A stretch of DNA of 64,000 nucleotides. Origin: Trypanosoma brucei (lineage: Eukaryota). The position numbers and the translations under genes are program-made. The DNA is taken from the NCBI GenBank assembly GCA_000002445.1, contig CP000070.1, forward strand, positions 1,504,001-1,568,000, given 5' to 3'. Of the stretch, positions 1-59,592 are shown piece by piece; position 1 is the first letter of the stretch; every line of letters starts with the position of its first letter. The notes below the pieces were generated by a model. The model had not been told where the DNA came from. It saw nothing but the letters and a program-made list of their open reading frames with translations, and ran no database searches.

Positions 1-696
1 TGCGTGAATTGCTGGTAAACTTAATGGGTCAGCGCGCGAAGGAAAAGTTGGAGGTTCCGTAAACAATTTGTGTGCGCGCCCTTGTGTTGGTGATTTTATT
101 TCAATCTGCAGTGCTTCTCGAGTGCGCTCCGAAGGTTGTTTACATCATCGAAGAGGGTCTCTGTGTTTTCGTTCCCTGTATTTCATGTTTATTCTGTGGT
201 GATATAGGTTAAACATAGTGCTGGGCATTATTCTAAGAGGACGAGCTGTAGGTGACGTATATTGTAGCGGTTCCCGTGTGCTGTTTGGTGAGAAGGCAGT
301 TCCGATACATGCATACTATATGCATACATGTATTGGACTGCTGGCCGTCGTTGACGGGATCCGTACGGGTTCCTTGTAACGATTACTTGAAGTGACTTAA
401 ATTCTCGTTAACAATTGGCGTGTGTGGAGGAAGAGGGGGGAACGATGATATGCAGTGAGCCCGTGGCCCGTTCCGTTTGTGTGGTGGCAGGACCTGTGCG
501 TGTGCGTGTGTGTTGTATTCGGTGGACAGTAAAAAGATGTTTTGCAGGTGTTTAGGACGGCGTATTGCACCTCAGGCATGTTATTGTCTTCGCCGTATAC
601 TTCCCACCAACAGTGTGTCTTTTCTCCCTTTACTTTTTTTCTTTTCTTGAAAAAAAAAATTACAAAGTGCATTTGCCGGATTGGAGCACTGCCTGC

Positions 697-3600
697 ATGG
701 CTGATCATGAAGATGTAATTCGTCCCATCCGTATAGGACCCAATGTTTTATCGACCGAGGATATTGATAGCTACGTGAAGGAGCTACTGTATAGTGCAGG
801 GCGAAAAAGGAACGCTGGGCAAAACTCTTTTAAAGGGAATGTGCAGCAGAAATCCCTGACAGTTGAGTATATACTTGAGAAAGTTTACGGGAGATTTTTC
901 AATCAATCGGGGCAATCTCCTTTTCCTGATGGTTTACCCTTTGCTTTGAAGCAGATTCCATCAATTGCCAGAATTGCCGAACTACAACTGAGAGTTACAG
1001 CACTAGTTCAATCTGCAGTTGCCACACGGCCCGTCGTCACTCTTCATGAATTAGAGTTGGAGGTTTGCAGTGCTGAAGGTGTTTCAATTTTCGCGGAACT
1101 TGGTTTAGGTGATTCACTGACCGCGTTGCCGTTTGTGCAGCACGCGTTCAATCTGCGGAGCTCAACAGGAGTTGTGGCCCCTATTACCAGCGACGATTTT
1201 TTACAATTTTTGTTGTTTCATGCTGACGCTGAAATAATGTTGACAAGCGGTGGGGACGCGGGGGATGCTGTACGTGCCTTTGCACAGTTTTACAAAAATG
1301 GCTACTACACCCCTCTGCAGCTGGGGATACATATTCAACACTTTTCTTGGCTGCTTCGCCTGCTGCGCCAAGAGACTGGAAGAACGTCGGCTTTTATTTC
1401 GCAAATTGTTGCAGAGAACATAAGGGCAGCTGATGGGCGTGCACTGCTTTACACGCGGGTCGTGGAGGCCCTGCATGGTTCCATGATACTGCGTGAGAAG
1501 GAAACTTCCGTATCGCACAAACTGTTCGTCCCATTTTCTGTGCGGGCACCGATGCCGGAAGCAGAGTCGATGGGAGTTCCGTTGGCGTTGTGGAATAAAT
1601 CGGGTGAGGGACCGGCGGGTGGTGTTTGTCTATACGGTGTTCTGCAAACTGATCCGATTTCAGCGCAACCCGCCGTCCCCGTGATAGTGACAAACGCGGG
1701 CACAGAGCCGGAACGGTCAGCGCCACACGAGAGTAGTGCACCTCCCAGTAACGCGGTACCAAGTGCTTTTCACGGGGATTCAAGTAGAATTACAAACAAC
1801 AACGATGTTGGAACTGGTCTTGCCTGTTCATCTGCCTTTGCTTACGCTAGAAAGCGGCAACGTCGTGTGGTGGCGGATGACTCTACAACGATTGTGGAAA
1901 CACCATCTTTTCCCAAAATGCGGGTTCCTCTTGAGCCTCCACCTTTTGATGTCACAGCCTCTAAAGCGTCAACGGTCTCTCTTCCTACGCTGAGTCTCCA
2001 GGATGCAATGTCCGTTTTACGTTGCCTCGTTGTGATGCAGTCGGCGCATCATTTTTCGTACGTCCCAACGGTGCATGATTTTACTGTTTTCAAATCTGCC
2101 TCTAATGAAGTTGTCCCCCTTTTTCTGAACGGGAGCACATCTGGGATATCGAGTGTTAACAGCGAAGCATCAAACAGCGGCACGTTCCACGTCAGTTTGG
2201 AGAAGCTTCTTACACTTCTGGGGCGAACTGGCGCCCCCAACAAGCTGTATGACCTCTACCGCTCTTTTAAAAACACTCTTTATTTTTACAACACTAATGA
2301 CCGTGAGAGTAGCCGCGGTGTCGGTAACGATTGTGGAGAAAACGGGTCGCCAGCTTCACTGATGCTTCAGTGTGTTGAGCTTGGAATGAGCGACTTGCTT
2401 TTCGTACCAGTTGTGGGAACTGATTCTCTACTCCCACTTGCAGCCGCAAGGTCCGCCCTCAGTGGCCGTGTTCTGCTGTCAGGGTACCGTTTGGGGGCGG
2501 ATTTGCTTGACTTTCATCCCCTCCATATTATACTGAGTCCCGTTTTCGATAATGGGGGAACCACGTATACGTTTGCTGGAGACACAAAAAACCGTGGTAA
2601 TAGGAGGGGAAATAAAACCGCTATTGTTATCGTTGACTCCCTTTGTTTATTCGGTTGTAAAAGCTTCCCCCATTCCGGTCACCTCCCTGAACCGTGTGAA
2701 AAGGGGGAGCACGAGGTCCAGCAGTTAGCCCGTAAAACTCTGGAAGATTGTGGTGTGATTACACGTGTTCCTGAAGAATGGTTCGAAAACGACTTTCTGG
2801 CGGAGATGTTAAAGCGCCAGGTAGAGGATCACCACAACCAAGTATGCACAAGTACAATGGAGGACCTACACATGGCGCTGAGGATGCTAACGTTGTACTG
2901 GTGGTTGATGGGGTTGTGTTTTTCGAAAACGGAAAGACATTTGGAGAAAGTGACGGGACTCTTAAACTCTTTGAATGACACTCGCTGGATCCCATATATT
3001 ACTCCAGGGAAGGAAAGCAATCGCAATATGTTGCGAGAAGATGCTGTTCGTTGGTGCACGCCTCGTGAGCTGTTCCCTTCAATTCAGTGCTTTATTGCTA
3101 GTGCGGCCTCGGAGTTATTGAATTTTGCCCCGCGCACATGTGTAGATCTTATCGAGCTCTGGAAACAGTATGCAATGAACTACTATGGCGCAGAAACTAC
3201 GGCGCGGGCAGTGCGGGAAGGTCAGTTTGCACTTGAGTTTTTGAACAGATGGGTGCCTATCGTGAGGAATCTTGTAGGGACGTCACCGTCACTCTGTAAT
3301 GAATTACGAGCCGCACTTTTTGGGATGCCGCGGTCGTGGAATGCAGAAGTGGCACTGAGAGTTCTCCGCTCGCTGCGCATCGGCATGCACGTTTCGGTCG
3401 GGGGGATCCGTCACTTGGTGCACTGTATTGCTTCTGACGTCGGAAGCCGCCGTGAAGTCGCCCTTCGCAGCCTTAAAAAAGAGCCGTTGCTTCCTCTTCC
3501 ACCGCCGCACAGTGCAATCGCATCCAACGAGCCATTCATTATAGGGGAATTGGCTACATGCGACACTGTGCATTGGTTTTCACTGACTGAGTGCGCCAAA

Positions 3601-5634
3601 GCCCCTTCCTCATCTGACTGTAAAATGGGTGCGGGAGGTGAGCACTTTGACTTGGAGATATTCGACCGATCCATTTGCTTCCTTGGAGATGATCTTTGTG
3701 GTTTCTTCCGCGAACTTCTTGGCGTTTCCCCCGTTCCAACCGTTGCTTCATGGGTAGCCACAGCACAGTCTTACAGGCATCGCGTTTCTGCAGGCTCTAT
3801 TATCAACACGAGTCTGACCGAGTTGTTCCTGCACGCGCTCACCATTTGTTGCACACTGCAATACCGCGAGATTGTTAGTGTACTGGAGAAGCGTATGGGG
3901 TGCGGGAGCCAGGATAGAAAACACCGCTCTTCACCACAGGGTGTTGCGCAAAACGCCCTCCAGGAGCTTTTAGATCGTGTGCCTGCCAACAGTAAAGGTG
4001 CTTATATTTTCCCCCTGAATGGTAAGTGGCGATCGGGGGCCGAGGGTTTGTTTTTCTGTGGTTCCTACTACTGCGGATTTGACGAAGTTGCCCTGCAGGC
4101 CGTAGAAAATGGAGAAACTGAGGGAGGGAACTCTGTTGCCGCGCTTCCTGCACTGAAGTTCACACACGAACTATCGCACTATGCTGTTGCAACCGTGCTG
4201 CAGAAAATGGGTCTTACTGCACTGGAAGATTGCACGGAAAAGATTGTTACCTTTAGCAGCTTGAATACCGAAAGCAGCGCCGAGCTTCACCGTATGATCG
4301 GTGAGTGTGTGCCGCGTGTACAAGGGTTTATGCGTGCGCAGTACCCGCTTTACTATGAACTTGTTGATGAAGAAGTGCGACACCGCTTGGAAAACTTTGG
4401 TACCACATTGGCGAAGGACCCCGTATTGAAAGAAGTGCTGCGTTACCGAGGAAAAGTATACAGCATGGTGCGCACCGTTCGCTGCACATATATCCCACAA
4501 CACCATTGTATCTATGGCGTCGACGAGCAGTTTACATCTTCTGTTGGAGCTGAGGCTGTAGCAGATATTTTTGTGCCGCGGCCGGATGCGGAGGTGCGTC
4601 GCGGGTTGTTGAGTGCCCTGCAAGAATGGTTTAATTGCGGGAGTCTTCAGTTCTACGGTGAAGAATTCTCCTGCGAGACGTTATCGTCACAAGTTACCAC
4701 AGAAGCTCATGAAACGCGTGCTCCATCTGATGATCCGCAGTGGCATCTTTCCGCTGCTTCCGTGTCACGTTTCAGGGACCATTTTCCACTCGGGCATGAG
4801 GGGTTCTCCCTCATAGGGAAACCGTTGCTAACTGCAGGGAAGTCGTCCAATGGCGCACGTAGCGCAAACTTGAGGGTGTCCCTCTGGGGTGATGGTGACG
4901 GATATTCAGTCAGGTCGTTACCCAAATGGTCGTGCGAGTTTTTTTGCTCTGCACATGAGGTAATTCGTGCTGCGGTTAAACGCATTCGTAGGGGCGATGA
5001 TGAATCGAACACTGGAGAAAATCCGGATGTATCGGAAGAATTCGATGCGGACAACGACGGAAGTGCTATTCGCAATGCGGAGTTGGGAGTGTCAATTCAT
5101 ATGGGAGGGAAGCATCATCGAAGGCGTGCAAAGCGGAATCCTGGCCCGATGGTAATATACCGTCCAGAAGGTCCTCTGAAACGATACGACACTCACGACT
5201 ATTCTGTGGCAGCTGAGCGTTTCGTGTACGAAAAATTGTGTAATGAGACGCCCACCGATGTCGAGGTTGTCTGGGTGAATGAGCACTCCGAACTTGGCGT
5301 CCCTTATGATATTTTGCTGCTGCGGCGCATCGTGTCTTCCCCGACGAAGAAACGCAATATTGGAGAGTTAACTGGCAAGGAAGATGTTTTAGCCTTTATT
5401 GAGGTCAAAAGTACGTGCACCAATACCCGCCGGGACTTTGAGATGTCACTGCGCGAGGTTCTTTTTGCAGCTCGATTCGGCAGGGCGTACAAAGTGTATA
5501 GGGTATTCCGTGCCTCAACCAGTGCTATGCGGGAAATGCACGTGGAAGTATTGGAAGATATCATAACAATGTGGCATCAAGGGAAACTCACGCTGACAGG
5601 AGAAGTGAAGGTGATGCCGACGGGAAGCGGTTGA
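697..5634 (+). CDS. Large conserved hypothetical protein (~1645 aa) with a C-terminal DUF3883 / PD-(D/E)xK restriction-endonuclease-like module
   Basis: Uninterrupted ORF from 565. The track start at 565 is TTG and the translated N-terminus is a polypyrimidine tract, so the first ATG at 697 (MADHEDVIRP...) is taken as the start. The C-terminal ~145 aa (nt ~5194-5631) carry AERFVYEKL...VWVNE...GVPYDILLL...FIEVKST, matching the remembered DUF3883 pattern (G-E..V...L, W, GYDI, IEVKTT), i.e. a D...E-x-K nuclease-like core. No other recognisable domain in the upstream ~1500 aa. Confidence 0.6.
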   Translation: MADHEDVIRPIRIGPNVLSTEDIDSYVKELLYSAGRKRNAGQNSFKGNVQQKSLTVEYILEKVYGRFFNQSGQSPFPDGLPFALKQIPSIARIAELQLRVTALVQSAVATRPVVTLHELELEVCSAEGVSIFAELGLGDSLTALPFVQHAFNLRSSTGVVAPITSDDFLQFLLFHADAEIMLTSGGDAGDAVRAFAQFYKNGYYTPLQLGIHIQHFSWLLRLLRQETGRTSAFISQIVAENIRAADGRALLYTRVVEALHGSMILREKETSVSHKLFVPFSVRAPMPEAESMGVPLALWNKSGEGPAGGVCLYGVLQTDPISAQPAVPVIVTNAGTEPERSAPHESSAPPSNAVPSAFHGDSSRITNNNDVGTGLACSSAFAYARKRQRRVVADDSTTIVETPSFPKMRVPLEPPPFDVTASKASTVSLPTLSLQDAMSVLRCLVVMQSAHHFSYVPTVHDFTVFKSASNEVVPLFLNGSTSGISSVNSEASNSGTFHVSLEKLLTLLGRTGAPNKLYDLYRSFKNTLYFYNTNDRESSRGVGNDCGENGSPASLMLQCVELGMSDLLFVPVVGTDSLLPLAAARSALSGRVLLSGYRLGADLLDFHPLHIILSPVFDNGGTTYTFAGDTKNRGNRRGNKTAIVIVDSLCLFGCKSFPHSGHLPEPCEKGEHEVQQLARKTLEDCGVITRVPEEWFENDFLAEMLKRQVEDHHNQVCTSTMEDLHMALRMLTLYWWLMGLCFSKTERHLEKVTGLLNSLNDTRWIPYITPGKESNRNMLREDAVRWCTPRELFPSIQCFIASAASELLNFAPRTCVDLIELWKQYAMNYYGAETTARAVREGQFALEFLNRWVPIVRNLVGTSPSLCNELRAALFGMPRSWNAEVALRVLRSLRIGMHVSVGGIRHLVHCIASDVGSRREVALRSLKKEPLLPLPPPHSAIASNEPFIIGELATCDTVHWFSLTECAKAPSSSDCKMGAGGEHFDLEIFDRSICFLGDDLCGFFRELLGVSPVPTVASWVATAQSYRHRVSAGSIINTSLTELFLHALTICCTLQYREIVSVLEKRMGCGSQDRKHRSSPQGVAQNALQELLDRVPANSKGAYIFPLNGKWRSGAEGLFFCGSYYCGFDEVALQAVENGETEGGNSVAALPALKFTHELSHYAVATVLQKMGLTALEDCTEKIVTFSSLNTESSAELHRMIGECVPRVQGFMRAQYPLYYELVDEEVRHRLENFGTTLAKDPVLKEVLRYRGKVYSMVRTVRCTYIPQHHCIYGVDEQFTSSVGAEAVADIFVPRPDAEVRRGLLSALQEWFNCGSLQFYGEEFSCETLSSQVTTEAHETRAPSDDPQWHLSAASVSRFRDHFPLGHEGFSLIGKPLLTAGKSSNGARSANLRVSLWGDGDGYSVRSLPKWSCEFFCSAHEVIRAAVKRIRRGDDESNTGENPDVSEEFDADNDGSAIRNAELGVSIHMGGKHHRRRAKRNPGPMVIYRPEGPLKRYDTHDYSVAAERFVYEKLCNETPTDVEVVWVNEHSELGVPYDILLLRRIVSSPTKKRNIGELTGKEDVLAFIEVKSTCTNTRRDFEMSLREVLFAARFGRAYKVYRVFRASTSAMREMHVEVLEDIITMWHQGKLTLTGEVKVMPTGSG

Positions 5635-12846: not shown

Positions 12847-15800
12847 ATGAAGTCAGGAATATCTAGTCGGTCGTACTACCGAGATGTAAGAGGTCCAGTT
12901 CCGGTATCGGAACGCGGCAGCCGTGTCTCGTTAACACCGAAGGCGGCAACGGAGGAGAAAAGAAGCCGTGTGGTGAGACGCCCAAGCGCAGCAGCAGCTA
13001 TCGCACCTGCTCGTGCTGCGGGCACTTCTGGATCACTTCGCACAACAACACCCGTCTCAGCAACCACGTCTCGCAACCGAACAGTGGTCACCCCTTATCG
13101 CGGAACACGTGCTTCTCAGAAGGCTTCCACGTTGCAGTCTCCAAAGACACTTTCACCAGCAGAATCAACACACTCCGTCCCGTGCATTCAAAGAAGGGCA
13201 TCCGTACCAGTACCCGTATCAGGGCGCCGTTCCTCCTTCAGGAATCCGTCATCTGTTAGTGCACGACGAAGCACCATTGGCCCAATGCCGAGTCGTGCTT
13301 CAATTGCCATGACTTCTATTTCGGGGGCTGGAGGTGCGTCAACGGCGGCGTCGAGTGCACAGACACCCACTAGAAAGAGGCACCCAACTGCGGTGATGCC
13401 AATAGCCGAAACAAAGGAGCAGGTAAAGAGCGACGTTGGCCGAAATAGCATTCCCTTCACCTTATCAGGGCACTATTCATGTGCTGTGGTGGTGAAATCA
13501 AGTGCTGCGGTATGGGCTGCTAATGAGGAAACTGGTGCTGTCGATATTTTTAGTAGTGTTTCAGGCGATTTTTTGGGGCGAGTGCCTCCGCGGCCCCCTA
13601 TGAAGTCTGCGGCTGGGCCGACGCAAGGGTGTTTTTCTCTCATTGGAACTCTTAAAGCGTTTGAGCATCATGTGTGGGCAGGGTACGATGATGGAACCGT
13701 CGTTGTGTACGACCACCTCTGCGTTAATGCCGTGACAACTGGATGCTTCCACTCAGCACCGGTTGTGTCGTTCTGCGGGATGTCCGATGGTATCACTGTC
13801 AGTGCGTCCACCGACATGACCCTTGTGCGGTGGGATAAGGAGGAAAAGAATTTTGAAGCCATTACCCGTATTGTTGGAGTACCCGAAGCGCATCAGATGC
13901 TAACGTGCACCACCTCATTTGGTGACAAGTATGTTCTCTGCGGGATGACAACGGGAAATATTATAGTGATCGACTGTTCCACAGGCATGCAGGCTGCCAC
14001 ACTACGAAAACACACCAGTTGCGTGAATGCACTTGTTGTGATGGAAGGTTTGCTCTTTACCTCAGCGGAGGAGGGTTGCGTGAATGTGTGGAGCCTGCGC
14101 GCTGACACTCCTAGCGCTGGCACAACGTTTCAGAGTTGTTGCAGGCTACTTCGATCGATTTCCGTACAAATGGCGGTTCGGGATATGGTTCCTCATGATG
14201 CTTCTCGTAGTTTGTGGGTGGCGTATGTAGATGGATTGGTTGAGCGCTGGAGCGCCAATCCTGACGATGACTTCGGTGTTGAACAAGTGTTGAGGGAAGG
14301 AGTTGTTGACGCAGAAGGGGTACCTAGGCGAGTTGAGGCGGTTGCACTTCAGTGTATGGGAACGGTGGAGACAATGCGTGTACTTGCACTGGGAAGCAAT
14401 GGCATCAGTAAGGTCTGGTGCGGTCACCGTAATGAAGTGGAGGAATCTTTGCAGCAGTCCATTCAGTCGCTGAATGCCATAATTTCTCAAGACGCAGCAG
14501 AGGCAGCTCTGTGGGAGAAAAAGGCTCTGCTACTGAAGCAGAAAGAGATGAAGCGTAAACAAAAGTACAGTTTGTTGCTACTCAGCATCTATGAACGTCA
14601 ACTCCTGTATAGCTACTACGCCAGATGGAGAAAGTTCTCCACTAAGAATACCAATCAGGGGCGTCAACATAAGGAAATTTGCTTCGATCTGGAGGACCGT
14701 CATCGATTCCGTATTCTTCGTCGTTATTTTACGATGTGGTGTTCCCTGTATGAAAAAGAACAACGGCGGCTGCGGCAGAAGCTTCTCTCCACAACATTCC
14801 AGAAGGTATCACGCCGCATGTGGTTGTCACGGTTGTTTTCCACATGGAGAAGGTCCGCAACCGAACGCAGAATGGCGCGACATCGGTGGCAAATAGCGGT
14901 TGCGTTGGAAAAAGTGTCCAAAGGAACCCTGTTGGAGAAATTCTTTACCAAATGGCGGTACCTTCGCTGTAAGTCGCGCAAAACTGTGGGAGAGGACAAG
15001 ATCAACATATTAGCTGCAAGGGCACGGAAGTCTTTACAACGGCGGGCCTATGATGAATGGAGGCTACACCATTCGTGTCACGGAAATAAGAATTCTCCCA
15101 TTGCTTGTGCTCCTTCAAGGGGTAACGCTGCAAAGATAGCTGAATCGTACGAAAAGGTAGTAATCGAACGCCACCGCCGCAGTGTGTTTAACATGTGGCG
15201 TAATATGACGAAGAGACGTCGTACTTTGTCTCGACTAACGAAGCTTGCCAGGTCCAAGGAGTCGCAACGCAATAGGCACATCTTATTCAAAGGGTTCATA
15301 CAATGGCAGTTGTTCGTGCAGCAGCAACATCTTAATGCCATGAGCCGAGAAGTGCAGTTAGTGGAGAGGCGGCTGCGCCATGCTGAGGAAACTAACGCAG
15401 ACATTTTTGACAAGTTACAGTTACAAAAGCGTCTGGACCAGCTTCGGAGGCAACACGACAACGAAACTCGGCAGCTGCAGGAGGAGCTTGCGCGCGCCCA
15501 GGAACTTATAAACGAGCGAGATGCTCTTCAGTCAGTTGATCACGTAGTAAATAAAAACGGTGCTGATGATGAAGAGGGAACTCCTGTGAGTACCTTTGGC
15601 ACTCCAGCACGCTCATATGCGCCACAGGCGCTATTCTCACCAATTGTACTGCAGAAGATGCCTACTTCAGAGGCGATGGAGTTTATTATGAGCCGATTGA
15701 AGGGTATTGTATTGAATCTTTACACAGACATGGGGCTTTTCCGTCAAGTTCGAGAGCGCCTGCGTTGTGGTACAACGGCGGCGGTCATCTTCCTTGAAGG

Positions 15801-16119
15801 CTTTCATGAGGTGAAACGCCTCATCGTGTCACTCAGCAAAAAACGTGTGGGTGCCTCCACACGGCGCGGTGCTGAACGTTGGGCGGTGGCACCCGAATCG
15901 TTTGATGGTGTGGGAGCTCTCCCGTGTTCAGGTGTTGTACAGGGTATAAAAGCGATGGTTCTCGCATATGATATGGTGAGTAACTCTGACATGGAAGGTT
16001 TAGCGGCAACGCGGGAGGAAATAATCGAAAACGTAGATTTACTGTTTGCGCTATGGAAAGCTTGTTATGCTGCCAGGAAACCAGTGTTGCCGGTGAACAA
16101 TAGGGTTTCTACACGGTAA
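12847..16119 (+). CDS. WD40 beta-propeller protein with a C-terminal Sfi1-like (centrin-binding type) Trp-periodic repeat array and coiled coil (1090 aa)
   Basis: ATG at 12847. Residues 1-190 are Ser/Thr/Arg/Pro-rich low complexity with RRAS/RRSS basophilic kinase-site-like motifs. Residues ~200-525 have WD-like units (HHVWAGYDDGTVVVYD, CVNVWSL, SKVWCG). Residues ~575-830 have conserved Trp at residues 594, 631, 667, 703, 738, 784 and 820 (~36-aa period) in the context [FY]xxW[RK], resembling the Sfi1 repeat consensus. Residues ~835-870 are predicted coiled coil. Confidence 0.7.
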   Translation: MKSGISSRSYYRDVRGPVPVSERGSRVSLTPKAATEEKRSRVVRRPSAAAAIAPARAAGTSGSLRTTTPVSATTSRNRTVVTPYRGTRASQKASTLQSPKTLSPAESTHSVPCIQRRASVPVPVSGRRSSFRNPSSVSARRSTIGPMPSRASIAMTSISGAGGASTAASSAQTPTRKRHPTAVMPIAETKEQVKSDVGRNSIPFTLSGHYSCAVVVKSSAAVWAANEETGAVDIFSSVSGDFLGRVPPRPPMKSAAGPTQGCFSLIGTLKAFEHHVWAGYDDGTVVVYDHLCVNAVTTGCFHSAPVVSFCGMSDGITVSASTDMTLVRWDKEEKNFEAITRIVGVPEAHQMLTCTTSFGDKYVLCGMTTGNIIVIDCSTGMQAATLRKHTSCVNALVVMEGLLFTSAEEGCVNVWSLRADTPSAGTTFQSCCRLLRSISVQMAVRDMVPHDASRSLWVAYVDGLVERWSANPDDDFGVEQVLREGVVDAEGVPRRVEAVALQCMGTVETMRVLALGSNGISKVWCGHRNEVEESLQQSIQSLNAIISQDAAEAALWEKKALLLKQKEMKRKQKYSLLLLSIYERQLLYSYYARWRKFSTKNTNQGRQHKEICFDLEDRHRFRILRRYFTMWCSLYEKEQRRLRQKLLSTTFQKVSRRMWLSRLFSTWRRSATERRMARHRWQIAVALEKVSKGTLLEKFFTKWRYLRCKSRKTVGEDKINILAARARKSLQRRAYDEWRLHHSCHGNKNSPIACAPSRGNAAKIAESYEKVVIERHRRSVFNMWRNMTKRRRTLSRLTKLARSKESQRNRHILFKGFIQWQLFVQQQHLNAMSREVQLVERRLRHAEETNADIFDKLQLQKRLDQLRRQHDNETRQLQEELARAQELINERDALQSVDHVVNKNGADDEEGTPVSTFGTPARSYAPQALFSPIVLQKMPTSEAMEFIMSRLKGIVLNLYTDMGLFRQVRERLRCGTTAAVIFLEGFHEVKRLIVSLSKKRVGASTRRGAERWAVAPESFDGVGALPCSGVVQGIKAMVLAYDMVSNSDMEGLAATREEIIENVDLLFALWKACYAARKPVLPVNNRVSTR

Positions 16120-16538: not shown

Positions 16539-16925
16539 ATGTTTCTACATAATCGCGGCCTTGCTGTGGATCGAGCGGTGCTGCGGCTCAATCCGCTTAT
16601 TGTTTATGTTATTATACCATTTCTTTTGCCGTTGCTTTCCATGTGTATATTACGCTGGAAGTTGGAATATGCCTGGGCCGAGCTTTTTGTTCTAAATGCA
16701 CTCGTGTCAGCCTTTACCGGTTTGGTGATGTGGCTACATTCTGAGCGAGTGGCAAATATGTTCCTCCAATACTCGGGTCACTCATATGGGAAGGCAAACG
16801 AGGGCGCAGCAGCTTTATTAGGGGTGCACCGCATTTCACCCGTGCTTCCCGCTTGTGTCTCTCTCTTTTTGATGCTGATCAGCTTTTGGCACGTTGTAGT
16901 CATGATTCTTTTAGCGGTCATGTGA
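16539..16925 (+). CDS. Putative small multi-pass membrane protein (128 aa); speculative
   Basis: ATG-initiated ORF in the 1.2-kb spacer between two genes, downstream of a polyY tract (16420-16440). It has three strongly hydrophobic segments (LIVYVIIPFLLPLLSMCIL, LFVLNALVSAFTGLVMWL, VLPACVSLFLMLISFWHVVVMILLAV). No homology recognised, so it could be UTR. Confidence 0.25.
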   Translation: MFLHNRGLAVDRAVLRLNPLIVYVIIPFLLPLLSMCILRWKLEYAWAELFVLNALVSAFTGLVMWLHSERVANMFLQYSGHSYGKANEGAAALLGVHRISPVLPACVSLFLMLISFWHVVVMILLAVM

Positions 16926-23713: not shown

Positions 23714-25630
23714 ATGGCTGAAAAAGTACAGGTGGTGTCACGCCTGCGTCCACCCTTACGCCCCAACAGTCCTCTTTCTGTGGTGCCAGTGGACGAGCAA
23801 CGCTTGTGCGTGGCTAATCGTAGGGTGTACGACGTGGATCGTGTGTATGGTACCAATGATTCTACGGAGTATATCTTTTATGATCGTGTGGCTGCCCTTG
23901 TAGACCGCTTCCTCACTGGTTATAACGCCACGGTGCTCGCCTACGGGCAAACCGGAAGCGGCAAAACTTTCACAATGAGTGGCCTCATGCCGTTGATCTT
24001 ACGGTACACTGTGGAGCGTATGGGCGGTCACACAAAGAATTTGAGTTTTCAGTGTGTGGAGGTATACGGTGAGGTATTGAGAGATTTACTTACGAGCGAT
24101 CCAGCTGGATCGGCAAAACACCTCCATATACATGAAGTGGACAGCAGTGCTAACAATAGAAATGGCACGGCAAACAATCTCAATGCTAACAACTGCGGTG
24201 CATCCGTGGTTGTTGTCGGTGCTGCGCGCGTAAAGGCGCGAAACTTTGAGGAAATACAAGAAATTATAGACTACAGCAGCAAAATGCGCGCGACAGGGGC
24301 AACACAGATGAACGAGCACTCATCCCGAAGTCATAGCATCTTCACAATATTTAACCATGAACAACAGTCCAAACTCAACCTTGTTGATCTTGCGGGTTCG
24401 GAGCGTAACAAAAAAACACACAATGTGGGTCAGAGGTTTAGGGAGAGCTGTGCTATCAATGGGGGATTGCTAGCCCTCGGCAATGTTATTCGTGCCCTTA
24501 GTCGAAATAGCTTTAGCCATCCTGAGGCTCCTCAGCATGTTCCGTATCGCAGCAGCAAGCTGACGCGGCTGCTACAGGACTCACTTGGAGGTAATAGCAC
24601 AACGCTTCTCATTGCATGTGTGTCCGCAGATGCCGACAACACGGGTGAGACGGTACGCACAATGCAGTACAGTGCTCTTGCCGCAAGGATTTTGAACGAA
24701 CCGTTTTTACGTTTTGAAGGTCCCGCAGCAGCGTCTTTGGTGGAAGTGGAGGACGACGAAAAACGGCAGGATGAGCACGAGTGTCAACGGAATGATAATA
24801 GTGCTGCCGCCGGTGGATCCACGGAGGTAATACGACTAAGGAAGCGTGTGGCCGGTTTAGAGGAGCACCTGCAGCGCTGTCGTGAGGAGCTCAAAAATGA
24901 CGAGGTGGCCTTCGCCCAACAGATCAAATACACCAAAATGCTGCTTCAGGAGAATGAGCAACTGAAGCAACGCATATCGTCCCTTGAGGGGTTCGTACCC
25001 TCCCCTTCTATGACACCACCGGCGACCGCAGCGGCGGCAGCAGCAGCTAGAGAGATGGAGATAAATAGTGCCCGGCTTCGAGAGAGAACGGCACTGTGGC
25101 AACAACTACATAAACACCGGCGGGGGAGTCCAGAGGCTGTTCAGCAGAAATTGTCCGGGCAGGAGCCATTGGCCTCCCATCGCCTGCGATCCCCGCTAAT
25201 GGACGCGTGTGGGTTTGCTCCAATTAATGAATACAGTGGTCAGGAGTATTCATGGGAAGGAGAAAAGACGGTTATAAGTACACAATCTCAGCAACAGCAG
25301 CACTTGTTCGGCACAAACCCAGCTTTGCACAGCACAGCATGGAATGAGCCAGCCAAAGTTGTAGAATTACCCGAGAACATCAGTAATATCAATCATATAA
25401 ATGATAGCGGATCCTTGTACTACGAGTCTGAAAAGCATGTAACCGGAAGGGAAGAACAGCTCAACTTGCTGGCAAAGGAGGCGTTATATTACCAAAACAG
25501 TAACAGTGAGTTGCGGCGGCGTCTTCGCGCAGTGATGGCTTTATATGAAGCACAGCAACAAGAGGCCGCAATGCTGCGGCACGAAGTGGAGCAGATTCGT
25601 GAACTCATCGACGGGAGGTGTCAAGTATAA
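23714..25630 (+). CDS. Kinesin-like protein with an N-terminal motor domain (638 aa)
   Basis: The P-loop GQTGSGKTFTM is present, as are switch I NEHSSRSHSIF, switch II DLAGSE, and SSKLTRLLQDSLGGNSTTLLIACVS. The motor spans ~nt 23714-24730. A coiled-coil stalk follows (EHLQRCREELKNDE..., LKQRISSLEG). An Asn-rich insert sits in a motor loop (SSANNRNGTANNLNANN). Confidence 0.85.
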   Translation: MAEKVQVVSRLRPPLRPNSPLSVVPVDEQRLCVANRRVYDVDRVYGTNDSTEYIFYDRVAALVDRFLTGYNATVLAYGQTGSGKTFTMSGLMPLILRYTVERMGGHTKNLSFQCVEVYGEVLRDLLTSDPAGSAKHLHIHEVDSSANNRNGTANNLNANNCGASVVVVGAARVKARNFEEIQEIIDYSSKMRATGATQMNEHSSRSHSIFTIFNHEQQSKLNLVDLAGSERNKKTHNVGQRFRESCAINGGLLALGNVIRALSRNSFSHPEAPQHVPYRSSKLTRLLQDSLGGNSTTLLIACVSADADNTGETVRTMQYSALAARILNEPFLRFEGPAAASLVEVEDDEKRQDEHECQRNDNSAAAGGSTEVIRLRKRVAGLEEHLQRCREELKNDEVAFAQQIKYTKMLLQENEQLKQRISSLEGFVPSPSMTPPATAAAAAAAREMEINSARLRERTALWQQLHKHRRGSPEAVQQKLSGQEPLASHRLRSPLMDACGFAPINEYSGQEYSWEGEKTVISTQSQQQQHLFGTNPALHSTAWNEPAKVVELPENISNINHINDSGSLYYESEKHVTGREEQLNLLAKEALYYQNSNSELRRRLRAVMALYEAQQQEAAMLRHEVEQIRELIDGRCQV

Positions 25631-26316
25631 TATTTCCTACTGTGTTCAGCATGTCGGTCTGTTCTCTCAGTTTCTTCCTTGTTTAAAACAAGAAAAAAGG
25701 AAAAAAAAGAAACACTGAGTGGTTATTTGTATGTGTTGGGTAGCGTCTGCTCGTGCCTATTGATCGCTTCGTACTCCCACGTCAACCGGGGGATATAAGT
25801 GCTCAATTTTTAGAGTGCGTTTCGATTCCTTTTTGTTCCCCAGTTTGTGCTCACCGTGCAGACGCGGGGTAGCCGCAAGCTCAAAATGATGCTCTTTAAT
25901 GACAATAGTTGTTTGTGTGGACACGAAGGAGGTTTATGCACCCGTTCTTTTTTTTTTGGTTTCGCGCTTGTTTGGGGTTTTGCATTGTTGACAGGATTTT
26001 CATTACTACCGTCATGCTTACCTCCCTGTCGCTATATCTGTTTATTCTACAGAATTTTTTTTTTCGAAACTATCTTTGCACACTTTCCTGTCGTGTGTTC
26101 TTCAGCTCTCACTCGTTTCCTCTTCGTCATTTGGGTTTACTTGAGGTGTCGTCCGACCACCTTTACCACCTCGTATACCAGCGAATACCTGTATCTTTTT
26201 TCTCTTAGCTCTACTGAAGAACTTTTTTTTTTTGCTACCTTTACTTCCCTATTTTCGAGAGCTATTTCCAAGGTAGAGGAAACAAAAAAAAAACGCAAGT
26301 GCACAGAGAAAACCCA

Positions 26317-28044
26317 ATGCAAGCAAAGGGAGATGGGAGTGGCAGCTTTACGCAGCGTAGCCCTCGTATCATTAATGGGGAAGGCAATGAAAATGTTGCG
26401 GACACCTTAAGGCGTCGCTACGTGCAGGCCGAGCTCCAATTGCGGGAGTGTGAAGACCGTTTTCGTCGGGATTGTGCCCGTCAGGAACAGGAGTTGGAGC
26501 TCATCCAATTTGAGAATAATAAACTAAAGGTGAGGATAGAAGAGATGCGTATGGCAGAGAATGCGGTAGATAAGGAATCGTCCTCACGGTCGCCTGGTGG
26601 CGCTTGTGTCGCAGCAGAACATGACTCCAAGTTACTGAAGGCTTCCTCGCAGAAATATCGATCTGCCCGTGAGGCTGTGGAACGCGCGCGCAATGAGCTT
26701 GTTGATTTGGAGGCTCAACTGTCAGCGGCCCGTGTTCGCTTCAACGAACTGCGTTGTAGACACGGCAGTACGAGTAGCGCAGCGAATGCCAGTTCTCTCC
26801 AAACTTACCGCAACAGACGAGAAGAAGAAGAGCAAATTGAGGCTTCTCGGGCTCGGTTGCGAGGGCTTGAGTCGCATGTAGAGACCGAGTCAGATCGCCT
26901 CTCCACTCTGATTGAAGAGGGGAAGGCGATGCGATTGGAAATTGACTTGCAAATCACCATGCAGAACCAAGTAGATGCTCTGAGACAGGATCGTGAAGGG
27001 GAGATGGTGGAGATTATGAAAGAAACCTCCTTTCTTATTGAAGTGTGCAACCTGCTTGTTGAGGAACGCAGTGAGTGCGAGCATCAGCTGGCAGAATTAC
27101 GAAAGGCGGCAGAGGCAGACGCCGAAGCGTATGAAAAAGCCTTTTACGAGCTTGTTGCCGTAGAGGACCGTAATAAAATCCAGGCGCAGAATGTAAGGGA
27201 GGGCATTGACAAGCTGACAGATGAATTAGCTGAAGTTGTCAAGGAGCGCACCGCCGCGGAGCACGATCTTGTAAACAAGCACAACGAGACCGGTGCTGCT
27301 GCCCAGGATGATATGGATGAAGACGGTGATGGTCTCGAGAGTCAGCTAAAAGAGTTTGAAGTCTACCTCAACCGTCTAGGGAAAATTGTCGGCACTTGCG
27401 ATCTTGCTGAGGTCGAGAGTTACGTCTGCGATGAAAATGGGGAGCGGTTCCAGTTGTATAATGTCATACAAAGCAAACAAAGCGCCGCGCGGGAACTTGA
27501 GGAGGAGAGAAATGAGCTAATGAAGAAACTCAATACTCTTGTTGACGGTACTGAAAAGCAGCGTCAGGAGCGCGAGGAGGTGAAAAGGTTGCAAAGTCAT
27601 CTGAAGGACCTGCAAGAAGAAACTGAGGCAATCGAAAAGCGGTCAGAGAAGACACGAGCAGTGCTAGCTGAATCAGTTCTTCACCTGCAGAAAACATACA
27701 CTTCTATTGGTTGTGTTGCGCCGAAGCTTGTTCTCACGAAGGAAGGCTCCACACCCTCGCTACATTCTGTGCATGAACTGTTCGCAGCCATTGAACGTCG
27801 TACGGAGGACTACTTAGCCGTTTGGTCGCATGACCGCAATGGTAACCAAGCAAAGCTAATGGGGGGGCGAACTGGACCTTTCACTGCACACTTGCTTGAC
27901 CCAATGCCAAAGTTTATAAAGGAAGAAACTGACACTTCAAAACCAGCGGGTCTGACAAAGCCCCGTCATGAACAGATCGGTATTGAACTAGACGAAGGCT
28001 ACGGCAGCGGGTTGTCGAGCCCCGCAACGGCTAGAGGAGAGTAA
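26317..28044 (+). CDS. Coiled-coil protein (~575 aa)
   Basis: The track start 26299 is GTG, so the first ATG at 26317 is taken. Heptad-rich Glu/Arg/Leu sequence throughout (ELQLRECEDRFRRDCARQEQELELIQFENNKLKVRIEEMR...), with no enzymatic motif. Confidence 0.55.
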   Translation: MQAKGDGSGSFTQRSPRIINGEGNENVADTLRRRYVQAELQLRECEDRFRRDCARQEQELELIQFENNKLKVRIEEMRMAENAVDKESSSRSPGGACVAAEHDSKLLKASSQKYRSAREAVERARNELVDLEAQLSAARVRFNELRCRHGSTSSAANASSLQTYRNRREEEEQIEASRARLRGLESHVETESDRLSTLIEEGKAMRLEIDLQITMQNQVDALRQDREGEMVEIMKETSFLIEVCNLLVEERSECEHQLAELRKAAEADAEAYEKAFYELVAVEDRNKIQAQNVREGIDKLTDELAEVVKERTAAEHDLVNKHNETGAAAQDDMDEDGDGLESQLKEFEVYLNRLGKIVGTCDLAEVESYVCDENGERFQLYNVIQSKQSAARELEEERNELMKKLNTLVDGTEKQRQEREEVKRLQSHLKDLQEETEAIEKRSEKTRAVLAESVLHLQKTYTSIGCVAPKLVLTKEGSTPSLHSVHELFAAIERRTEDYLAVWSHDRNGNQAKLMGGRTGPFTAHLLDPMPKFIKEETDTSKPAGLTKPRHEQIGIELDEGYGSGLSSPATARGE

Positions 28045-56631: not shown

Positions 56632-57087
56632 ATGATATCACTACATTTGTCCTCGCACTCACTAATGCATGTGCTACTTTCATTCCTGCTGTTATGTTCT
56701 GGAGTTGTTATGGGATATTATGCAGATGTGGATTATGAAGTGCCATCACGTGTTGTGCAGCTCACTGATGCGACATTTGACACAATTGTGATGGATCCCA
56801 CAAAAGATGTATTTGTTTTGTATTGCGTGACGTGGTCCCGTCATTGCCGCTCTGCTGTAAAATTATGGGCGGATCTTTCCATAAGTCAATTTAAACGACC
56901 CACCGCTGATACATTTGTGGCTGCATTAATTGACGCGGAGGCATTTCCCGAAACGGCGAAGCGTATGGGCGTAAAAAGTTACCCAACAATGTTATTTTAT
57001 ACCCGTTTAGAAAAGGCAACACCACTGGAGTATAATGGACAGGGCCTCCTTCCATTACTGGACAGTTTTGTCTTTCAAAACTCATAA
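56632..57087 (+). CDS. Secretory thioredoxin-fold protein with a degenerate active site (WSRHC instead of WCGHC); 151 aa
   Basis: ATG at 56632. The N-terminal signal peptide is [28 protein letters not shown]. The thioredoxin-like core is [20 protein letters not shown] with the cis-Pro motif KSYPTMLFY. The first active-site Cys is replaced by Ser. Confidence 0.6.
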
Positions 57088-57543
57088 AATTGTAAGAGGG
57101 GATGGAGGAGGAAAAGAGTTACCATTTGAAATCAATGAATCAGTTAAAGTTAGCGAAGGTAAGAGAAGGACTGTGAAGAATTTCAAAAAAACACACACAC
57201 ACATAACTATAAATAAATAAAATAATAATAATAATAAGCTTTACGGAAGTACCGAGTGAGCATCGTAAGTTGAGGAAACCGTAAAACACTCCTACGTAAT
57301 CAAACTCTTATATATATATATATATATGTGGGTGGGTCCGTCCGTTTTTCATAGTGTGTACCGTATGAGTGCCCTTTTTGTGTTTAGTTGATCAATTTTT
57401 TTATTTTTTATTTTGATTCCATGCAAAACTGTATGCGGAGCAATTTCATCGTTAAAATATTCACCACGGAGCAAACAAACGGATTTATACTTATGTACAT
57501 GTTAGTGTTCTTAATTCGTATTTGTATTACGTGCTTCACCGTG

Positions 57544-57575
57544 TTTATTTCTTTATTTCTTTATTTCTTTATTTC
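57544..57575. repeat. (TTTATTTC)4 octanucleotide tandem repeat
   Basis: Four exact units read directly from the sequence. Confidence 0.9.
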
Positions 57576-58539
57576 TTTTACTCTTTTGGGGCGGCATTCA
57601 ACACTTCTTCCTTTCTTATGTTCCTTTAACTCCTTTCCGAATATTAACGTCTGAAAGTGTGGAAGTGGAAGGAGGGACAATGACATCAAAAATACATGAA
57701 AATAAACAATATATTTATATTTATTTACAAGTGGGGAAGCGTCTATTGCGAAGGGGAAAAAATAAATAAATAAAATAAATTGCTTCATTTGAAGCAACGG
57801 GGGGGGGAAAAAAACGATAAAAATGTGTTAGTGCCGTCACCCGGACGGTTTCACTATTTTTTTTTGTTATGTGCTTCTGTTTCGGTAATAATGAGTTGTA
57901 TATTTTATTTTAAATTTTATTCTTGCAAAGAGAAGGAAGGTTTTCAAAATAACAGATAAAATATTTAAATTTATTTGTTTCATGTTTGCTTATTTGTGTT
58001 TTCCTCTCGTAAAGTTGAAGCTTTTGTGTCCTCACTGGCTTGAGGCGCTTCAACGCAAAGTATTAGTCATTTTTTTTACCCCCCTCTTTCATTGTTAAGT
58101 TGCTTAGGTTTCTTTTTTTTTTTTGTATATATATATATATATATATACATTTCAGAAAATTGTAAGTTACGTTGAGTCTTCACTTAAACTATTTCTTTTT
58201 CTTCCTTTCCTTTCCTTTCCTTTTGCGGATATTTTTCCACTTGTATTTTATATTGGTGGTTATTGTATGTGAAATCAAAAGTGAAGTTTATCAATCAGCT
58301 ACACTACACAGAAAATATCAACAGCAACATTCAAACAGGCTAAAAGGGCAGAAAGAAAATAAAAAAGGCATTACTTGAAAAAGTTCTAAATACAGAAAAA
58401 AGAAAAGGGTAATAATAATAATAATAGTAATAGTAATAATAATAGTAATACTATTACAACTAATAGTAACAATAACATCCACAAGAGCCCGATTTTTATT
58501 TGAAGGGAAGGCAAAAAACAAAAACAAAAACAAAAAAAG

Positions 58540-59580: not shown

Positions 59581-59592
59581 GGGGGGGGGGGG
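59581..59592. repeat. Homopolymer G12
   Basis: gggggggggggg directly read, flanked by (TG)n-like gtgtgtgtgtgt. Confidence 0.9.

What the first reader, a model, noticed from the sequence alone, without database searches (positions are those of the whole stretch)
12847..16119. WD40 propeller fused to a Sfi1-like, Trp-periodic centrin-binding-type repeat array
The C-terminal third (nt ~14569-15337) has Trp at residues 594, 631, 667, 703, 738, 784 and 820. That is a ~36-aa period, each in a [FY]-x-x-W-[RK] context preceded by Leu-rich positions (LLLLSIYERQLLYSYYARWRKF, FRILRRYFTMWCSLY, LSRLFSTWRRS, LLEKFFTKWRYLR, RRAYDEWRLHH, RSVFNMWRNMTKRR, LFKGFIQWQLFVQ). This is the architecture of Sfi1/Poc5-type centrin-binding repeats (consensus Ax7LLx3[F/L]x2W[K/R]). 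The repeats are attached to an N-terminal WD40 propeller and an RS-like phospho-regulatable tail, followed by a coiled coil. A WD40-plus-Sfi1-repeat fusion is not a standard described architecture. In a trypanosome it would be a candidate basal-body / bilobe / flagellum-attachment scaffold that recruits multiple centrins.
Basis: partly seen in the sequence, partly recalled or inferred. Interest (0 to 1): 0.7.

Follow-up and report, generated by a model that had tools for sequence, protein, structure and literature searches.

The report
WD40 protein with Sfi1-like centrin-binding repeats
This uncharacterised Trypanosoma brucei gene (Tb927.7.5610) encodes a WD40 protein with seven evenly spaced tryptophan motifs that closely resemble known centrin-docking sites, and published proximity data place it at the parasite's centrin-containing hook complex, so it is a testable candidate for the scaffold that organises centrins there.

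Summary
The ORF at 12847-16119 (+), 1090 aa, is T. brucei Tb927.7.5610 (UniProt Q582H6). Trp sits at 594/631/667/703/738/784/820, each in a [LIVM][LIVM]x3[FY]x2W[RK] context. That gives 6 core matches against 0.13 expected by chance.

All seven Trp are invariant or nearly invariant across orthologues. A strict 36-residue lattice holds in 38 family members from kinetoplastids, diplonemids and euglenids, and these share one architecture:
- a disordered N-terminus
- a WD40 propeller
- the repeat helix
- a coiled coil
- a C-terminal helical domain with no PDB relative

Pfam's Sfi1 model does not hit. However, a position-specific profile of these repeats picks out eight experimentally validated Sfi1-orientation centrin-binding peptides (SFI1, POC5, GANP, Sac3; combined P 4e-10). 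It does not pick out three reverse-orientation controls.

The array is predicted helical, has no proline outside one insert, and carries a net charge of +44.

Published data list the protein as "Hypo. 5, hook complex", a strong hit in BioID of the centrin-arm protein WDR2. TrypTag also places it in a mid-dorsal cortical sub-domain. pS931 rises about 11-fold through the cell cycle.

Verdict: a plausible, untested centrin-docking scaffold. It is a new variant of the Sfi1-repeat kind, not an Sfi1 or POC5 orthologue. Centrin binding itself is inferred.

The parts
12847..16119 (+). Complete ORF of Tb927.7.5610 (1090 aa plus stop), UniProt Q582H6 / XP_846184.1
   Evidence: ORF listing. Exact-sequence match to the T. 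b. brucei TREU927 protein. The gene ID is confirmed by the phosphopeptide TFGTPARSYAPQALFSPIVLQKMPTSEAMEF, listed under Tb927.7.5610 / Q582H6 in PMC6907760.
12847..13461 (+). N-terminal disordered, basic, Ser/Thr/Arg/Pro-rich segment (res 1-205)
   Evidence: AF2 pLDDT 21-26 with no secondary structure. S 17.6%, R 12.7%, net charge +26, 9 RS/SR dipeptides and 6 [ST]P sites. Poorly conserved in the orthologue alignment.
13462..14436 (+). WD40-type beta-propeller (res 206-530)
   Evidence: Weak Pfam beta-propeller/WD40 hits at 266-466, all below gathering thresholds. AF2 places four-stranded blades at 210-504 with pLDDT 70-86 over 210-430. Foldseek matches WD40 propellers in the PDB at E about 1e-12. 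31-36 of 51 relatives hit WD40/propeller Pfam models.
14437..14565 (+). Start of the long helix, with conserved W556 lying 38 residues before repeat 1 (res 531-573); not a motif copy
   Evidence: AF2 helix 531-602. W556 is at least 90% conserved, but its context does not match the repeat profile (z -0.5). A 38-residue distance recurs across the family.
14566..14640 (+). Repeat 1 (res 574-598; LLYSYYARW594RK)
   Evidence: Motif match, leave-one-out z 4.7, W594 invariant, helical in AF2.
14677..14751 (+). Repeat 2 (res 611-635; ILRRYFTMW631C)
   Evidence: Motif match, z 4.6, W631 invariant.
14785..14859 (+). Repeat 3 (res 647-671; WLSRLFSTW667RR)
   Evidence: Motif match, z 2.7 core and 3.8 full, W667 at least 90% conserved.
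14893..14967 (+). Repeat 4 (res 683-707; LLEKFFTKW703RY), the best match to the Sfi1/POC5 core
   Evidence: Strict motif match, z 3.9 core and 4.6 full, W703 invariant. Compare hPOC5 KIELMRTFFHWRIGHVRA.
14998..15072 (+). Repeat 5 (res 718-742; LQRRAYDEW738RL)
   Evidence: Motif match, z 2.9, W738 invariant.
15073..15126 (+). Variable non-helical insert splitting the array (res 743-760)
   Evidence: AF2 coil with pLDDT below 50. Its length varies widely among orthologues. It contains the only prolines in the array.
15136..15210 (+). Repeat 6 (res 764-788; HRRSVFNMW784RN)
   Evidence: [FLY]xxW[KR] match, z 2.5, W784 invariant.
15244..15318 (+). Repeat 7 (res 800-824; ILFKGFIQW820QL)
   Evidence: Motif match, z 3.1, W820 at least 90% conserved.
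15349..15561 (+). Coiled coil (res 835-905)
   Evidence: AF2 helices 761-848 and 853-903 with pLDDT about 80. Hydrophobic periodicity peaks at 3.4-3.5 here but not in the repeat array. Net charge -3.
15562..15639 (+). Flexible linker (res 906-931) ending in the cell-cycle-regulated phosphosite S931 (codon 15637-15639; LFS*PIV)
   Evidence: AF2 pLDDT below 50 for 895-929. pS931 log2 profile is 0 / 1.04 / 2.87 / 3.02 / 3.50 / 3.44 from early G1 to late G2/M, in cluster Phos-02, which is enriched for CDK motifs (PMC6907760).
15640..16086 (+). Conserved C-terminal all-helical domain (res 932-1080) with no recognisable relative

Best explanation
Tb927.7.5610 is a cytoskeletal scaffold conserved across Euglenozoa. 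Its central rod is about 256 residues long (roughly 38 nm if fully helical), highly basic and free of proline. The rod presents seven docking sites at a fixed 36-residue (ten-turn) spacing. Each site has the reversed hydrophobic triad L(-7)-F/Y(-3)-W(0) followed by a basic residue, which is the signature Sfi1, POC5, GANP and Sac3 use to insert a Trp into the C-lobe pocket of centrin. The proposed mechanism is that each repeat binds one centrin-family EF-hand protein. At the hook complex the likely partners are TbCentrin2 and/or TbCentrin4. The adjacent coiled coil would pair two rods. The WD40 propeller and the C-terminal domain would tether the centrin-loaded rod to other hook-complex or cortical-microtubule components. 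CDK-type phosphorylation of the linker (pS931) would couple assembly to the cell cycle. Shown here or in published data: the motif array and its conservation, the helical prediction, the family architecture, the statistical resemblance to validated centrin-binding peptides, the hook-complex proximity labelling, and the phospho-regulation. Inferred: centrin binding, one-per-repeat stoichiometry, dimerisation, and the roles of the propeller and C-terminal domain.
For: Motif count is far above chance. The seven repeats recognise one another and no other Trp in the protein. The Trp are invariant or nearly so in orthologues. The 36-residue lattice is conserved in 38 members, including 20 distant ones. 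A profile built only from distant members keeps the triad: -3 is 93% hydrophobic, and -7/-8, -16 and -20 are hydrophobic. Eight validated Sfi1-orientation centrin-binding peptines taken from PMC8622359 score in the top 0-4% of T. brucei Trp windows, with Fisher-combined own-shuffle P of 4.4e-10 (trypanosomatid profile) and 3.2e-6 (distant-member profile). Three reverse-orientation controls give 0.67 and 0.87. AF2 predicts long helices with modest confidence, as expected for a partner-dependent helix. There is no heptad signal in the array, no Pro outside the insert, no conserved Gly/Pro turn position, and net charge is +44. Phe at triad position 4 is an accepted centrin-binding variant in Toxoplasma SFI1 (PMC9406199). 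Tb927.7.5610 is listed as 'Hypo. 5, hook complex', with Mascot score 558 in BioID of centrin-arm protein WDR2; TbCentrin2 and TbCentrin4 appear in the same table (PMC12239596 Table S1).
Against: No direct evidence of centrin binding exists. Pfam Sfi1 gives no hit for the protein or any relative. Neither the sequence nor its profile matches Sfi1 chains in the PDB. An exhaustive profile search did not reach canonical Sfi1 proteins. The upstream half of the repeat differs from the Sfi1 consensus, with Leu rather than Ala at -16 and Ala at -19/-17. There are only seven repeats, against about 20-32 in Sfi1 proteins. The period is 36 rather than 33. The protein was not detected in KIN-G BioID. TrypTag also assigns it to a mid-dorsal cortical-cytoskeleton sub-domain, where no centrin is known to me. 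hPOC5 CBR1 and CBR2 are not significant on the distant-member profile. The null set is small, at about 100 Trp windows.
Confidence: 0.55

Rival explanations
1. The basic 36-residue repeats bind microtubules or another acidic cytoskeletal polymer directly, like the repeat-type microtubule-associated proteins of the trypanosome cortex. On this view the protein is a MAP of the microtubule quartet or subpellicular array, and the Trp motif is structural rather than a centrin dock.
For: [quoted passage not shown] The array has net charge +44. The WDR2 BioID that detects it also labels many cortical cytoskeleton proteins. The protein is absent from the KIN-G BioID.
Against: An invariant Trp with hydrophobic residues fixed at -3 and -7/-8 is not a known requirement for binding tubulin tails, but it is the defining feature of centrin docking. 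The profile distinguishes Sfi1-orientation peptides from reverse-orientation peptides of similar composition, so charge alone does not explain the signal. The protein does not appear in the supplements held for the subpellicular-array sub-domain study.
Confidence: 0.17
2. The repeats dock an EF-hand protein other than the five centrins, such as calmodulin or a calmodulin-like or other light-chain-type protein. The protein would then be a Ca2+-responsive scaffold that does not organise centrin.
For: Centrin and calmodulin targets are both basic amphipathic helices with bulky hydrophobic anchors (established knowledge; describes centrins as calmodulin-like). The cortical localisation label has no known centrin counterpart. 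The upstream half of the repeat differs from Sfi1.
Against: The 8-4-1 Trp-anchored triad and its orientation match centrin targets specifically. The proximity data place the protein beside TbCentrin2 and TbCentrin4.
Confidence: 0.15
3. The 36-residue units are a self-folding alpha-solenoid (TPR-, HAT- or HEAT-like helical hairpins), with the Trp buried in the repeat core and no bound light chain.
For: A strict 36-residue period with two hydrophobic clusters per unit (-20..-16 and -8..+4) is also typical of helical-hairpin repeats. Ser/Thr/Asn/Gly enrichment at -12..-9 could mark a turn.
Against: AF2 gives uninterrupted helices of 72-93 residues with low-to-moderate confidence, not a packed solenoid. 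There are no TPR, HAT or HEAT Pfam hits, even at E<=10. Gly/Pro is at most 13% at every position and the array has no Pro outside the insert. A net charge of +44 is unusual for a compact fold.
Confidence: 0.08

Closest known systems
Sfi1 / SFI1 (yeast Sfi1p, human SFI1, Toxoplasma TgSFI1): centrin-binding repeat scaffolds of the spindle-pole-body half-bridge and centriole
   Same: A tandem array of Trp-anchored motifs with the reversed hydrophobic triad (LLx3[F/L]x2W[K/R]) on a long basic alpha-helix. The spacing is regular and within the 23-36-residue range that allows one centrin per repeat. Validated SFI1 peptides R17, R18 and ScSfi1 R19 score significantly on this family's repeat profile.
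   Different: No detectable sequence homology: Pfam Sfi1, PDB and exhaustive profile searches are all negative. Seven repeats rather than about 20-32. Period 36 rather than 33. Leu rather than Ala at -16. Flanked by a WD40 propeller, a coiled coil and a separate C-terminal domain, none of which Sfi1 has. Reported at the hook complex or cortex, not at a centrosome or basal body.
POC5 (human hPOC5, Tetrahymena Poc5): a short array of Sfi1-like centrin-binding repeats next to a coiled coil, in the centriole inner scaffold
   Same: A small number of Sfi1-like repeats adjacent to a coiled coil. hPOC5 CBR2 KIELMRTFFHWR and CBR3 KKVWKVWR closely resemble LLEKFFTKWR here, and CBR3 is significant on both profiles.
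   Different: T. brucei has a separate gene annotated 'protein POC5, putative' with a basal-body GO term (UniProt Q38AK4), so this is not the POC5 orthologue. POC5 has no WD40 domain, and its WD40 partner POC1 is a separate polypeptide (PMC11564547 abstract). Here a propeller and the repeats lie on one chain.
Ciliate cortical Sfi1-family proteins (Tetrahymena Sfr proteins; Stentor and Spirostomum centrin-Sfi1 myoneme scaffolds)
   Same: These set a precedent for Sfi1-repeat scaffolds that organise centrin away from the centriole in cortical cytoskeletal structures (titles and abstracts). That would reconcile the hook-complex and cortical labels reported for this protein.
   Different: Those proteins are very long arrays that form Ca2+-contractile networks. 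No contractility is known for the trypanosome hook complex. No homology was tested or found here, and they carry no WD40 fusion that I know of.
WDR2 (Tb927.7.4700) and WDR1 (Tb927.10.15080): characterised WD40 proteins of the T. brucei centrin arm
   Same: WD40-containing, kinetoplastid cytoskeletal proteins in the same BioID neighbourhood.
   Different: WDR2 has a C-terminal WD40 domain, N-terminal DUF domains and a coiled-coil/PB1 middle domain, and it acts by recruiting the kinesin KIN-G. WDR1 is a CRL4 substrate receptor. Neither is described as having Trp-periodic repeats, so Tb927.7.5610 is a distinct protein.

Membership tests
Sfi1 family (Pfam PF08457; orthologues of yeast Sfi1p / human SFI1) | Significant sequence or profile similarity to the Sfi1 family model | tested here: not met
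   No Pfam Sfi1 hit at E<=10 for the full protein, for the repeat region alone, or for any of 51+9 relatives. Sequence and profile searches of the PDB are negative. The profile search of 1.84 billion proteins returned only WD40-bearing relatives.
Sfi1 family | Tandem repeats matching AX7LLX3[F/L]X2W[K/R] | tested here: inconclusive
   The core LLx3[F/Y/L]x2W[K/R] is met: 6 of 7 repeats match the core, F/Y/L/I at -3 is 100%, and +1 is 60% basic. The Ala at -16 is replaced by Leu (63%), with Ala at -19 and -17 instead.
Sfi1 family | Long array (about 20 or more repeats) forming most of the protein, with a period of 23-36 residues (33 in human) | tested here: not met
   Seven repeats occupy 256 of 1090 residues. 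The period of 36 lies within the permitted range but differs from 33. The Sfi1 figures come from PMC8622359 and PMC9406199.
Sfi1 family | Repeats lie on a continuous alpha-helix | tested here: met
   AF2 helices 531-602, 617-709, 716-742 and 761-848 cover the -20..+4 window of six of the seven repeats; only W631 falls partly outside. Confidence is modest, with pLDDT 40-70.
Sfi1 family | Binds one centrin per repeat | not testable with these tools
   No complex prediction or binding assay is available. The only support is indirect: the peptide-profile test and BioID proximity to TbCentrin2/4.
Sfi1 family | Localises to a centrin-containing microtubule-organising structure (SPB half-bridge, centriole or basal body) | tested here: inconclusive
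   Published labels are 'hook complex' (a centrin-containing structure, not an MTOC) and 'middle dorsal' cortical cytoskeleton. No basal-body annotation was found.
POC5 orthologue | Being the organism's POC5 gene (three centrin-binding repeats plus coiled coil, basal-body localisation) | tested here: not met
   A different T. brucei protein (UniProt Q38AK4) is annotated 'protein POC5, putative' with a basal-body GO term. The architecture here also includes a WD40 propeller and seven repeats.
Functional class: Sfi1-type ('8-4-1') centrin-binding motif | Reversed hydrophobic triad L8-x3-L/F4-x2-W1 on a basic helix, distinguishable from the 1-4-8 orientation | tested here: met
   The triad is conserved in trypanosomatid and distant-member profiles. 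Eight validated Sfi1-orientation peptides give combined P of 4.4e-10 and 3.2e-6, while three 1-4-8 controls give 0.67 and 0.87.
WD40 beta-propeller proteins | A propeller of four-stranded blades detectable by sequence and by fold | tested here: met
   Pfam propeller models hit at E of 8e-8 to 1e-3, below their whole-domain gathering scores. PF00400 or propeller models hit in 31-36 of 51 relatives. AF2 predicts the blades. Foldseek E is about 1e-12 against WD40 structures.

The most novel reading that the evidence does not exclude
Tb927.7.5610 is the missing structural template of the trypanosome centrin arm. In this reading it is a lineage-specific analogue of Sfi1, evolved independently or diverged beyond recognition, that lines up TbCentrin2/TbCentrin4 on a ten-turn (36-residue) lattice. 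It would dimerise through its coiled coil, anchor through a WD40 propeller and a previously unseen C-terminal fold, and be switched by CDK-type phosphorylation each cell cycle. Because the family is present in kinetoplastids, diplonemids and euglenids, such a centrin-organising module would be an ancestral feature of the euglenozoan flagellar-pocket and cortical cytoskeleton.
Probability: 0.3. Interest if true: 0.75.

Novelty: new variant of a known kind. Interest (0 to 1): 0.6.

Why it matters
The centrin arm (formerly the bilobe) of T. brucei is defined only by the centrins that mark it. It is needed for hook-complex, Golgi and flagellum-attachment-zone biogenesis, and so for cell division (PMC12239596). 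The centrin-arm papers in the searched library describe regulators (TbPLK, WDR1, KIN-G, WDR2) and never mention Sfi1 or centrin-binding repeats. A hook-complex protein with seven conserved Sfi1-type docking sites gives a concrete candidate with clean predictions: peptide binding, Trp-to-Ala alleles, and centrin-arm length after depletion. It would also show that Sfi1-style centrin scaffolding can be built into a different domain architecture in a deep-branching eukaryotic lineage, and that profile libraries miss such arrays. If centrin binding fails, the protein is still a conserved euglenozoan cytoskeletal component with a domain of unknown fold and strong cell-cycle phospho-regulation.

Tried and rejected
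- Pfam scans of the whole protein, of three sub-regions and of about 60 relatives found no Sfi1, TPR, HAT or IQ family, only WD40/propeller models.
- PDB sequence searches with the repeat region and with its profile found nothing.
- I tried to fetch authentic SFI1 proteins for a profile-profile comparison. The duplicated verified R17 peptide found no candidate, which wasted one search. I replaced this test with scoring of published validated peptides.
- WDR2 (Tb927.7.4700) was considered as the identity of the ORF and rejected because its architecture differs.
- An exact-sequence contig look-up of the window protein found nothing, but the T. b. gambiense allele was located.
- Searches for accession numbers and for neighbouring gene IDs in paper main texts returned nothing for this gene.
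- Supplements of the subpellicular-array study and the TbPLK proteomics study gave nothing.
- Toxoplasma SFI1 peptide sequences are only in a figure and could not be retrieved.
- A profile search with the C-terminal domain found one unnamed fragment.
- A chance or low-complexity origin for the Trp pattern was rejected on shuffles and conservation.
- A coiled-coil explanation for the repeat array was rejected because it has no heptad periodicity.

Full report
**Identity and observation**

The ORF at window 12847-16119 (+) encodes 1090 residues. It is identical to T. brucei brucei TREU927 XP_846184.1 / UniProt Q582H6, annotated 'hypothetical protein, conserved'.

I first inferred its systematic name from gene order. 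The kinesin four genes downstream fits Tb927.7.5650, and the ODAD1-like gene after that fits Tb927.7.5660. I then confirmed the name directly. A phosphoproteomics supplement lists 'Tb927.7.5610 S931 ... TFGTPARSYAPQALFSPIVLQKMPTSEAMEF ... Q582H6', which matches residues 916-946 exactly.

The spacings are 37, 36, 36, 35, 46 and 36. Six sites match [LIVMFW][LIVMQ]x3[FLY]x2W, against 0.13 expected in 20,000 shuffles of the region, with none reaching six. In a leave-one-repeat-out test all seven sites score z 2.5-4.7 against the profile of the others. The remaining twelve Trp of the protein, including conserved W556, do not.

**Conservation and family**

Eleven kinetoplastid orthologues, down to 24% identity, keep W594/631/703/738/784 invariant and W667/W820 at 90% or more.

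A profile of the repeat region alone was searched against 1.84 billion representative proteins and found 54 proteins at E<1e-3. Of 51 scanned, 31-36 carry WD40/propeller Pfam domains. My own HMMs show that 38 have the propeller, the middle region and the C-terminal domain in the same order. The WD40-plus-repeat combination is therefore an old, conserved architecture and not a T. brucei gene-model accident.

Named members come from four species:
- Bodo saltans
- the prokinetoplastid Papus ankaliazontas
- the diplonemid Lacrimia lanifica
- the euglenids Ploeotia vitrea and Chasmostoma nieuportense

All three euglenozoan classes are represented, and nothing outside Euglenozoa could be identified.

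Across the 38 members the Trp-Trp distance spectrum peaks at 36 (114 pairs), 72, 108, 144 and 180. Only 23 pairs sit at 33, the human SFI1 period. The 46-residue gap in T. brucei comes from a variable, non-helical insert at 743-760.

**Anatomy**

AlphaFold2 on the orthologue alignment gave a mean pLDDT of 55. It shows the following regions:
- Residues 1-205 are disordered: Ser/Thr/Arg/Pro-rich, net charge +26.
- Residues 210-504 form a beta-propeller, which Foldseek matches to WD40 structures at E about 1e-12.
- Long helices run 531-602, 617-709, 716-742, 761-848 and 853-903.
- Residues 895-929 form a flexible linker.
- Residues 932-1076 form a helical C-terminal domain.

The repeat array (575-830) has 62 K+R against 18 D+E, giving net charge +44, and no proline outside the insert. 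Gly/Pro never exceeds 13% at any repeat position. The array shows no 3.5-residue hydrophobic periodicity, whereas 835-905 does, so the latter is a genuine coiled coil.

**Is it Sfi1-like?**

By family-level homology it is not. Pfam Sfi1 is silent at E<=10 for this protein and all relatives. PDB sequence and profile searches are empty. The exhaustive profile search never reached a canonical Sfi1.

At the level of the motif the answer is yes. The Trp-anchored profile from 75 trypanosomatid repeat units has these features:
- W at 0
- F/Y/L/I at -3 (100%)
- hydrophobic residues at -4, -7 and -8
- K/R at +1 (60%)
- Leu at -16, and Ala at -19 and -17

This reproduces the core LLx3[F/L]x2W[K/R] of the published consensus AX7LLX3F/LX2W[K/R], and the reversed '8-4-1' triad (PMC8622359, PMC9406199). 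It does not reproduce the Ala at -16.

I took eight experimentally validated Sfi1-orientation centrin-binding peptides from the review's Table 2: hSFI1 R17 and R18, ScSfi1 R19, hPOC5 CBR1-3, GANP and ScSac3. My recalled R17 sequence was verified as PDB 2K2I chain B. I scored them on this profile with two controls: position-matched Trp windows from 17 other T. brucei proteins in this window, and within-peptide shuffles.
- All eight fall in the top 0-4% of the T. brucei null.
- Own-shuffle P values combine to 4.4e-10.
- The reverse-orientation XPC, Kar1 and AtRad4 peptides are unremarkable, with combined P of 0.67.

I repeated the test with a profile built only from 20 distant members (107 units). 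Six of the eight remained significant, with combined P of 3.2e-6, and the controls gave 0.87. The resemblance is therefore position-specific, orientation-specific and not a composition effect. The null set is small.

**Published experimental context**

No paper in the searchable library discusses this gene in its main text. Three supplements mention it.

1. Zhou, Hu and Li 2025 (PMC12239596, Table S1) list Tb927.7.5610 as 'Hypo. 5', localisation 'hook complex'. Their localisations come from TrypTag. Its Mascot score is 558 in BioID of the centrin-arm protein WDR2. That is comparable to TbSmee1 (624) and WDR1 (434), and far above TbCentrin2 (21). It is absent from the KIN-G BioID.
2. The TrypTag source data for Extended Data Fig. 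[quoted passage not shown]
3. Benz and Urbaniak 2019 (PMC6907760) report that pS931, an S-P site in the linker before the C-terminal domain, rises about 11-fold from early G1 to G2/M. It belongs to cluster Phos-02, which is enriched for CDK motifs and contains CYC6/CRK3 sites.

WDR2 itself (Tb927.7.4700) is a different protein. A separate T. brucei gene is annotated as POC5. None of the recent centrin-arm papers mentions Sfi1 or centrin-binding repeats.

**Interpretation**

The best-supported reading is a scaffold that presents seven Sfi1/POC5-type docking sites for centrin-family EF-hand proteins on a basic helix about 38 nm long. The helix is joined to a dimerising coiled coil and is flanked by a WD40 propeller and a C-terminal domain that presumably provide attachment. 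The protein sits at or beside the centrin arm of the hook complex, and its linker is phosphorylated in a cell-cycle-dependent way.

The 36-residue period equals ten turns of an alpha-helix. Successive sites would therefore face the same side, unlike the 33-residue SFI1 lattice. That is an inference and its consequences are unknown.

Centrin binding, stoichiometry, dimerisation and the roles of the flanking domains are all inferred. I put this reading at about 0.55. The rivals are:
- a direct microtubule- or polymer-binding basic repeat (0.17; supported by the cortical label and the charge)
- docking of a non-centrin EF-hand protein (0.15)
- a self-folding solenoid (0.08; disfavoured by the AF2 model, the lack of turn residues and the charge)

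**Classification and novelty**

The protein fails the membership tests for the Sfi1 family and for POC5 orthology. It passes the test for carrying Sfi1-type '8-4-1' motifs. I therefore file it as a new variant of a known kind: Sfi1-style centrin-docking repeats embedded in a Euglenozoa-specific WD40 / coiled-coil / novel-domain architecture.

It matters because it offers a specific, easily testable candidate for what organises centrins in the trypanosome centrin arm. Interest is 0.6. It is higher (0.75) if the protein proves to be the centrin-arm template, which I rate at about 0.3.

Noticed in passing
window 54000-64000: About 10 kb at 31-34% GC, following an all-plus-strand run of genes. It has no ORF above 170 aa and no Rfam family, and contains only short T-rich / AT low-complexity repeats. 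It may be the end of a polycistronic unit or another non-coding region of chromosome 7.
   Followed up: partly
window 26299-28044 (+): An ORF with an ODAD1 central coiled-coil domain. By gene order it is Tb927.7.5660, which TrypTag lists as a 'Proximal' axoneme sub-domain protein. That is consistent with a proximal outer-dynein-arm docking-complex component.
   Followed up: partly
window 15637-15639 (Ser931 codon): pS931 (LFS*PIV) is among the most strongly cell-cycle-regulated phosphosites in PMC6907760. It rises about 11-fold from early G1 to G2/M and sits in a CDK-motif-enriched cluster. It lies in the flexible linker just before the C-terminal domain.
   Followed up: yes
[not shown]
   Followed up: yes
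P0029, P0043, P0052, P0064 (metagenomic proteins, 1060-1239 aa): These distant hits have an N-terminal WD40 domain and three to five separate matches to the repeat profile, but lack the C-terminal domain. They may form a second sub-family with longer Trp-repeat arrays. Their organisms are unknown.
   Followed up: partly
window 16539-16925 (+): A 128-aa hydrophobic ORF immediately downstream of the finding is called as a gene in the T. b. gambiense chromosome 7 record. It was not examined further.
   Followed up: no
window 565-5634 (+) and 23714-25630 (+): A 1689-aa ORF with a NO VEIN C-terminal (NOV_C) domain, and a 638-aa N-terminal-motor kinesin that by gene order is Tb927.7.5650.
   Followed up: no
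tools: The word-indexed homology search did not retrieve human SFI1 from its own verified R17 peptide. It also found only one hit for a C-terminal-domain profile whose family has more than 40 members in the representative library. Negative results from that tool should be treated as weak.
   Followed up: no
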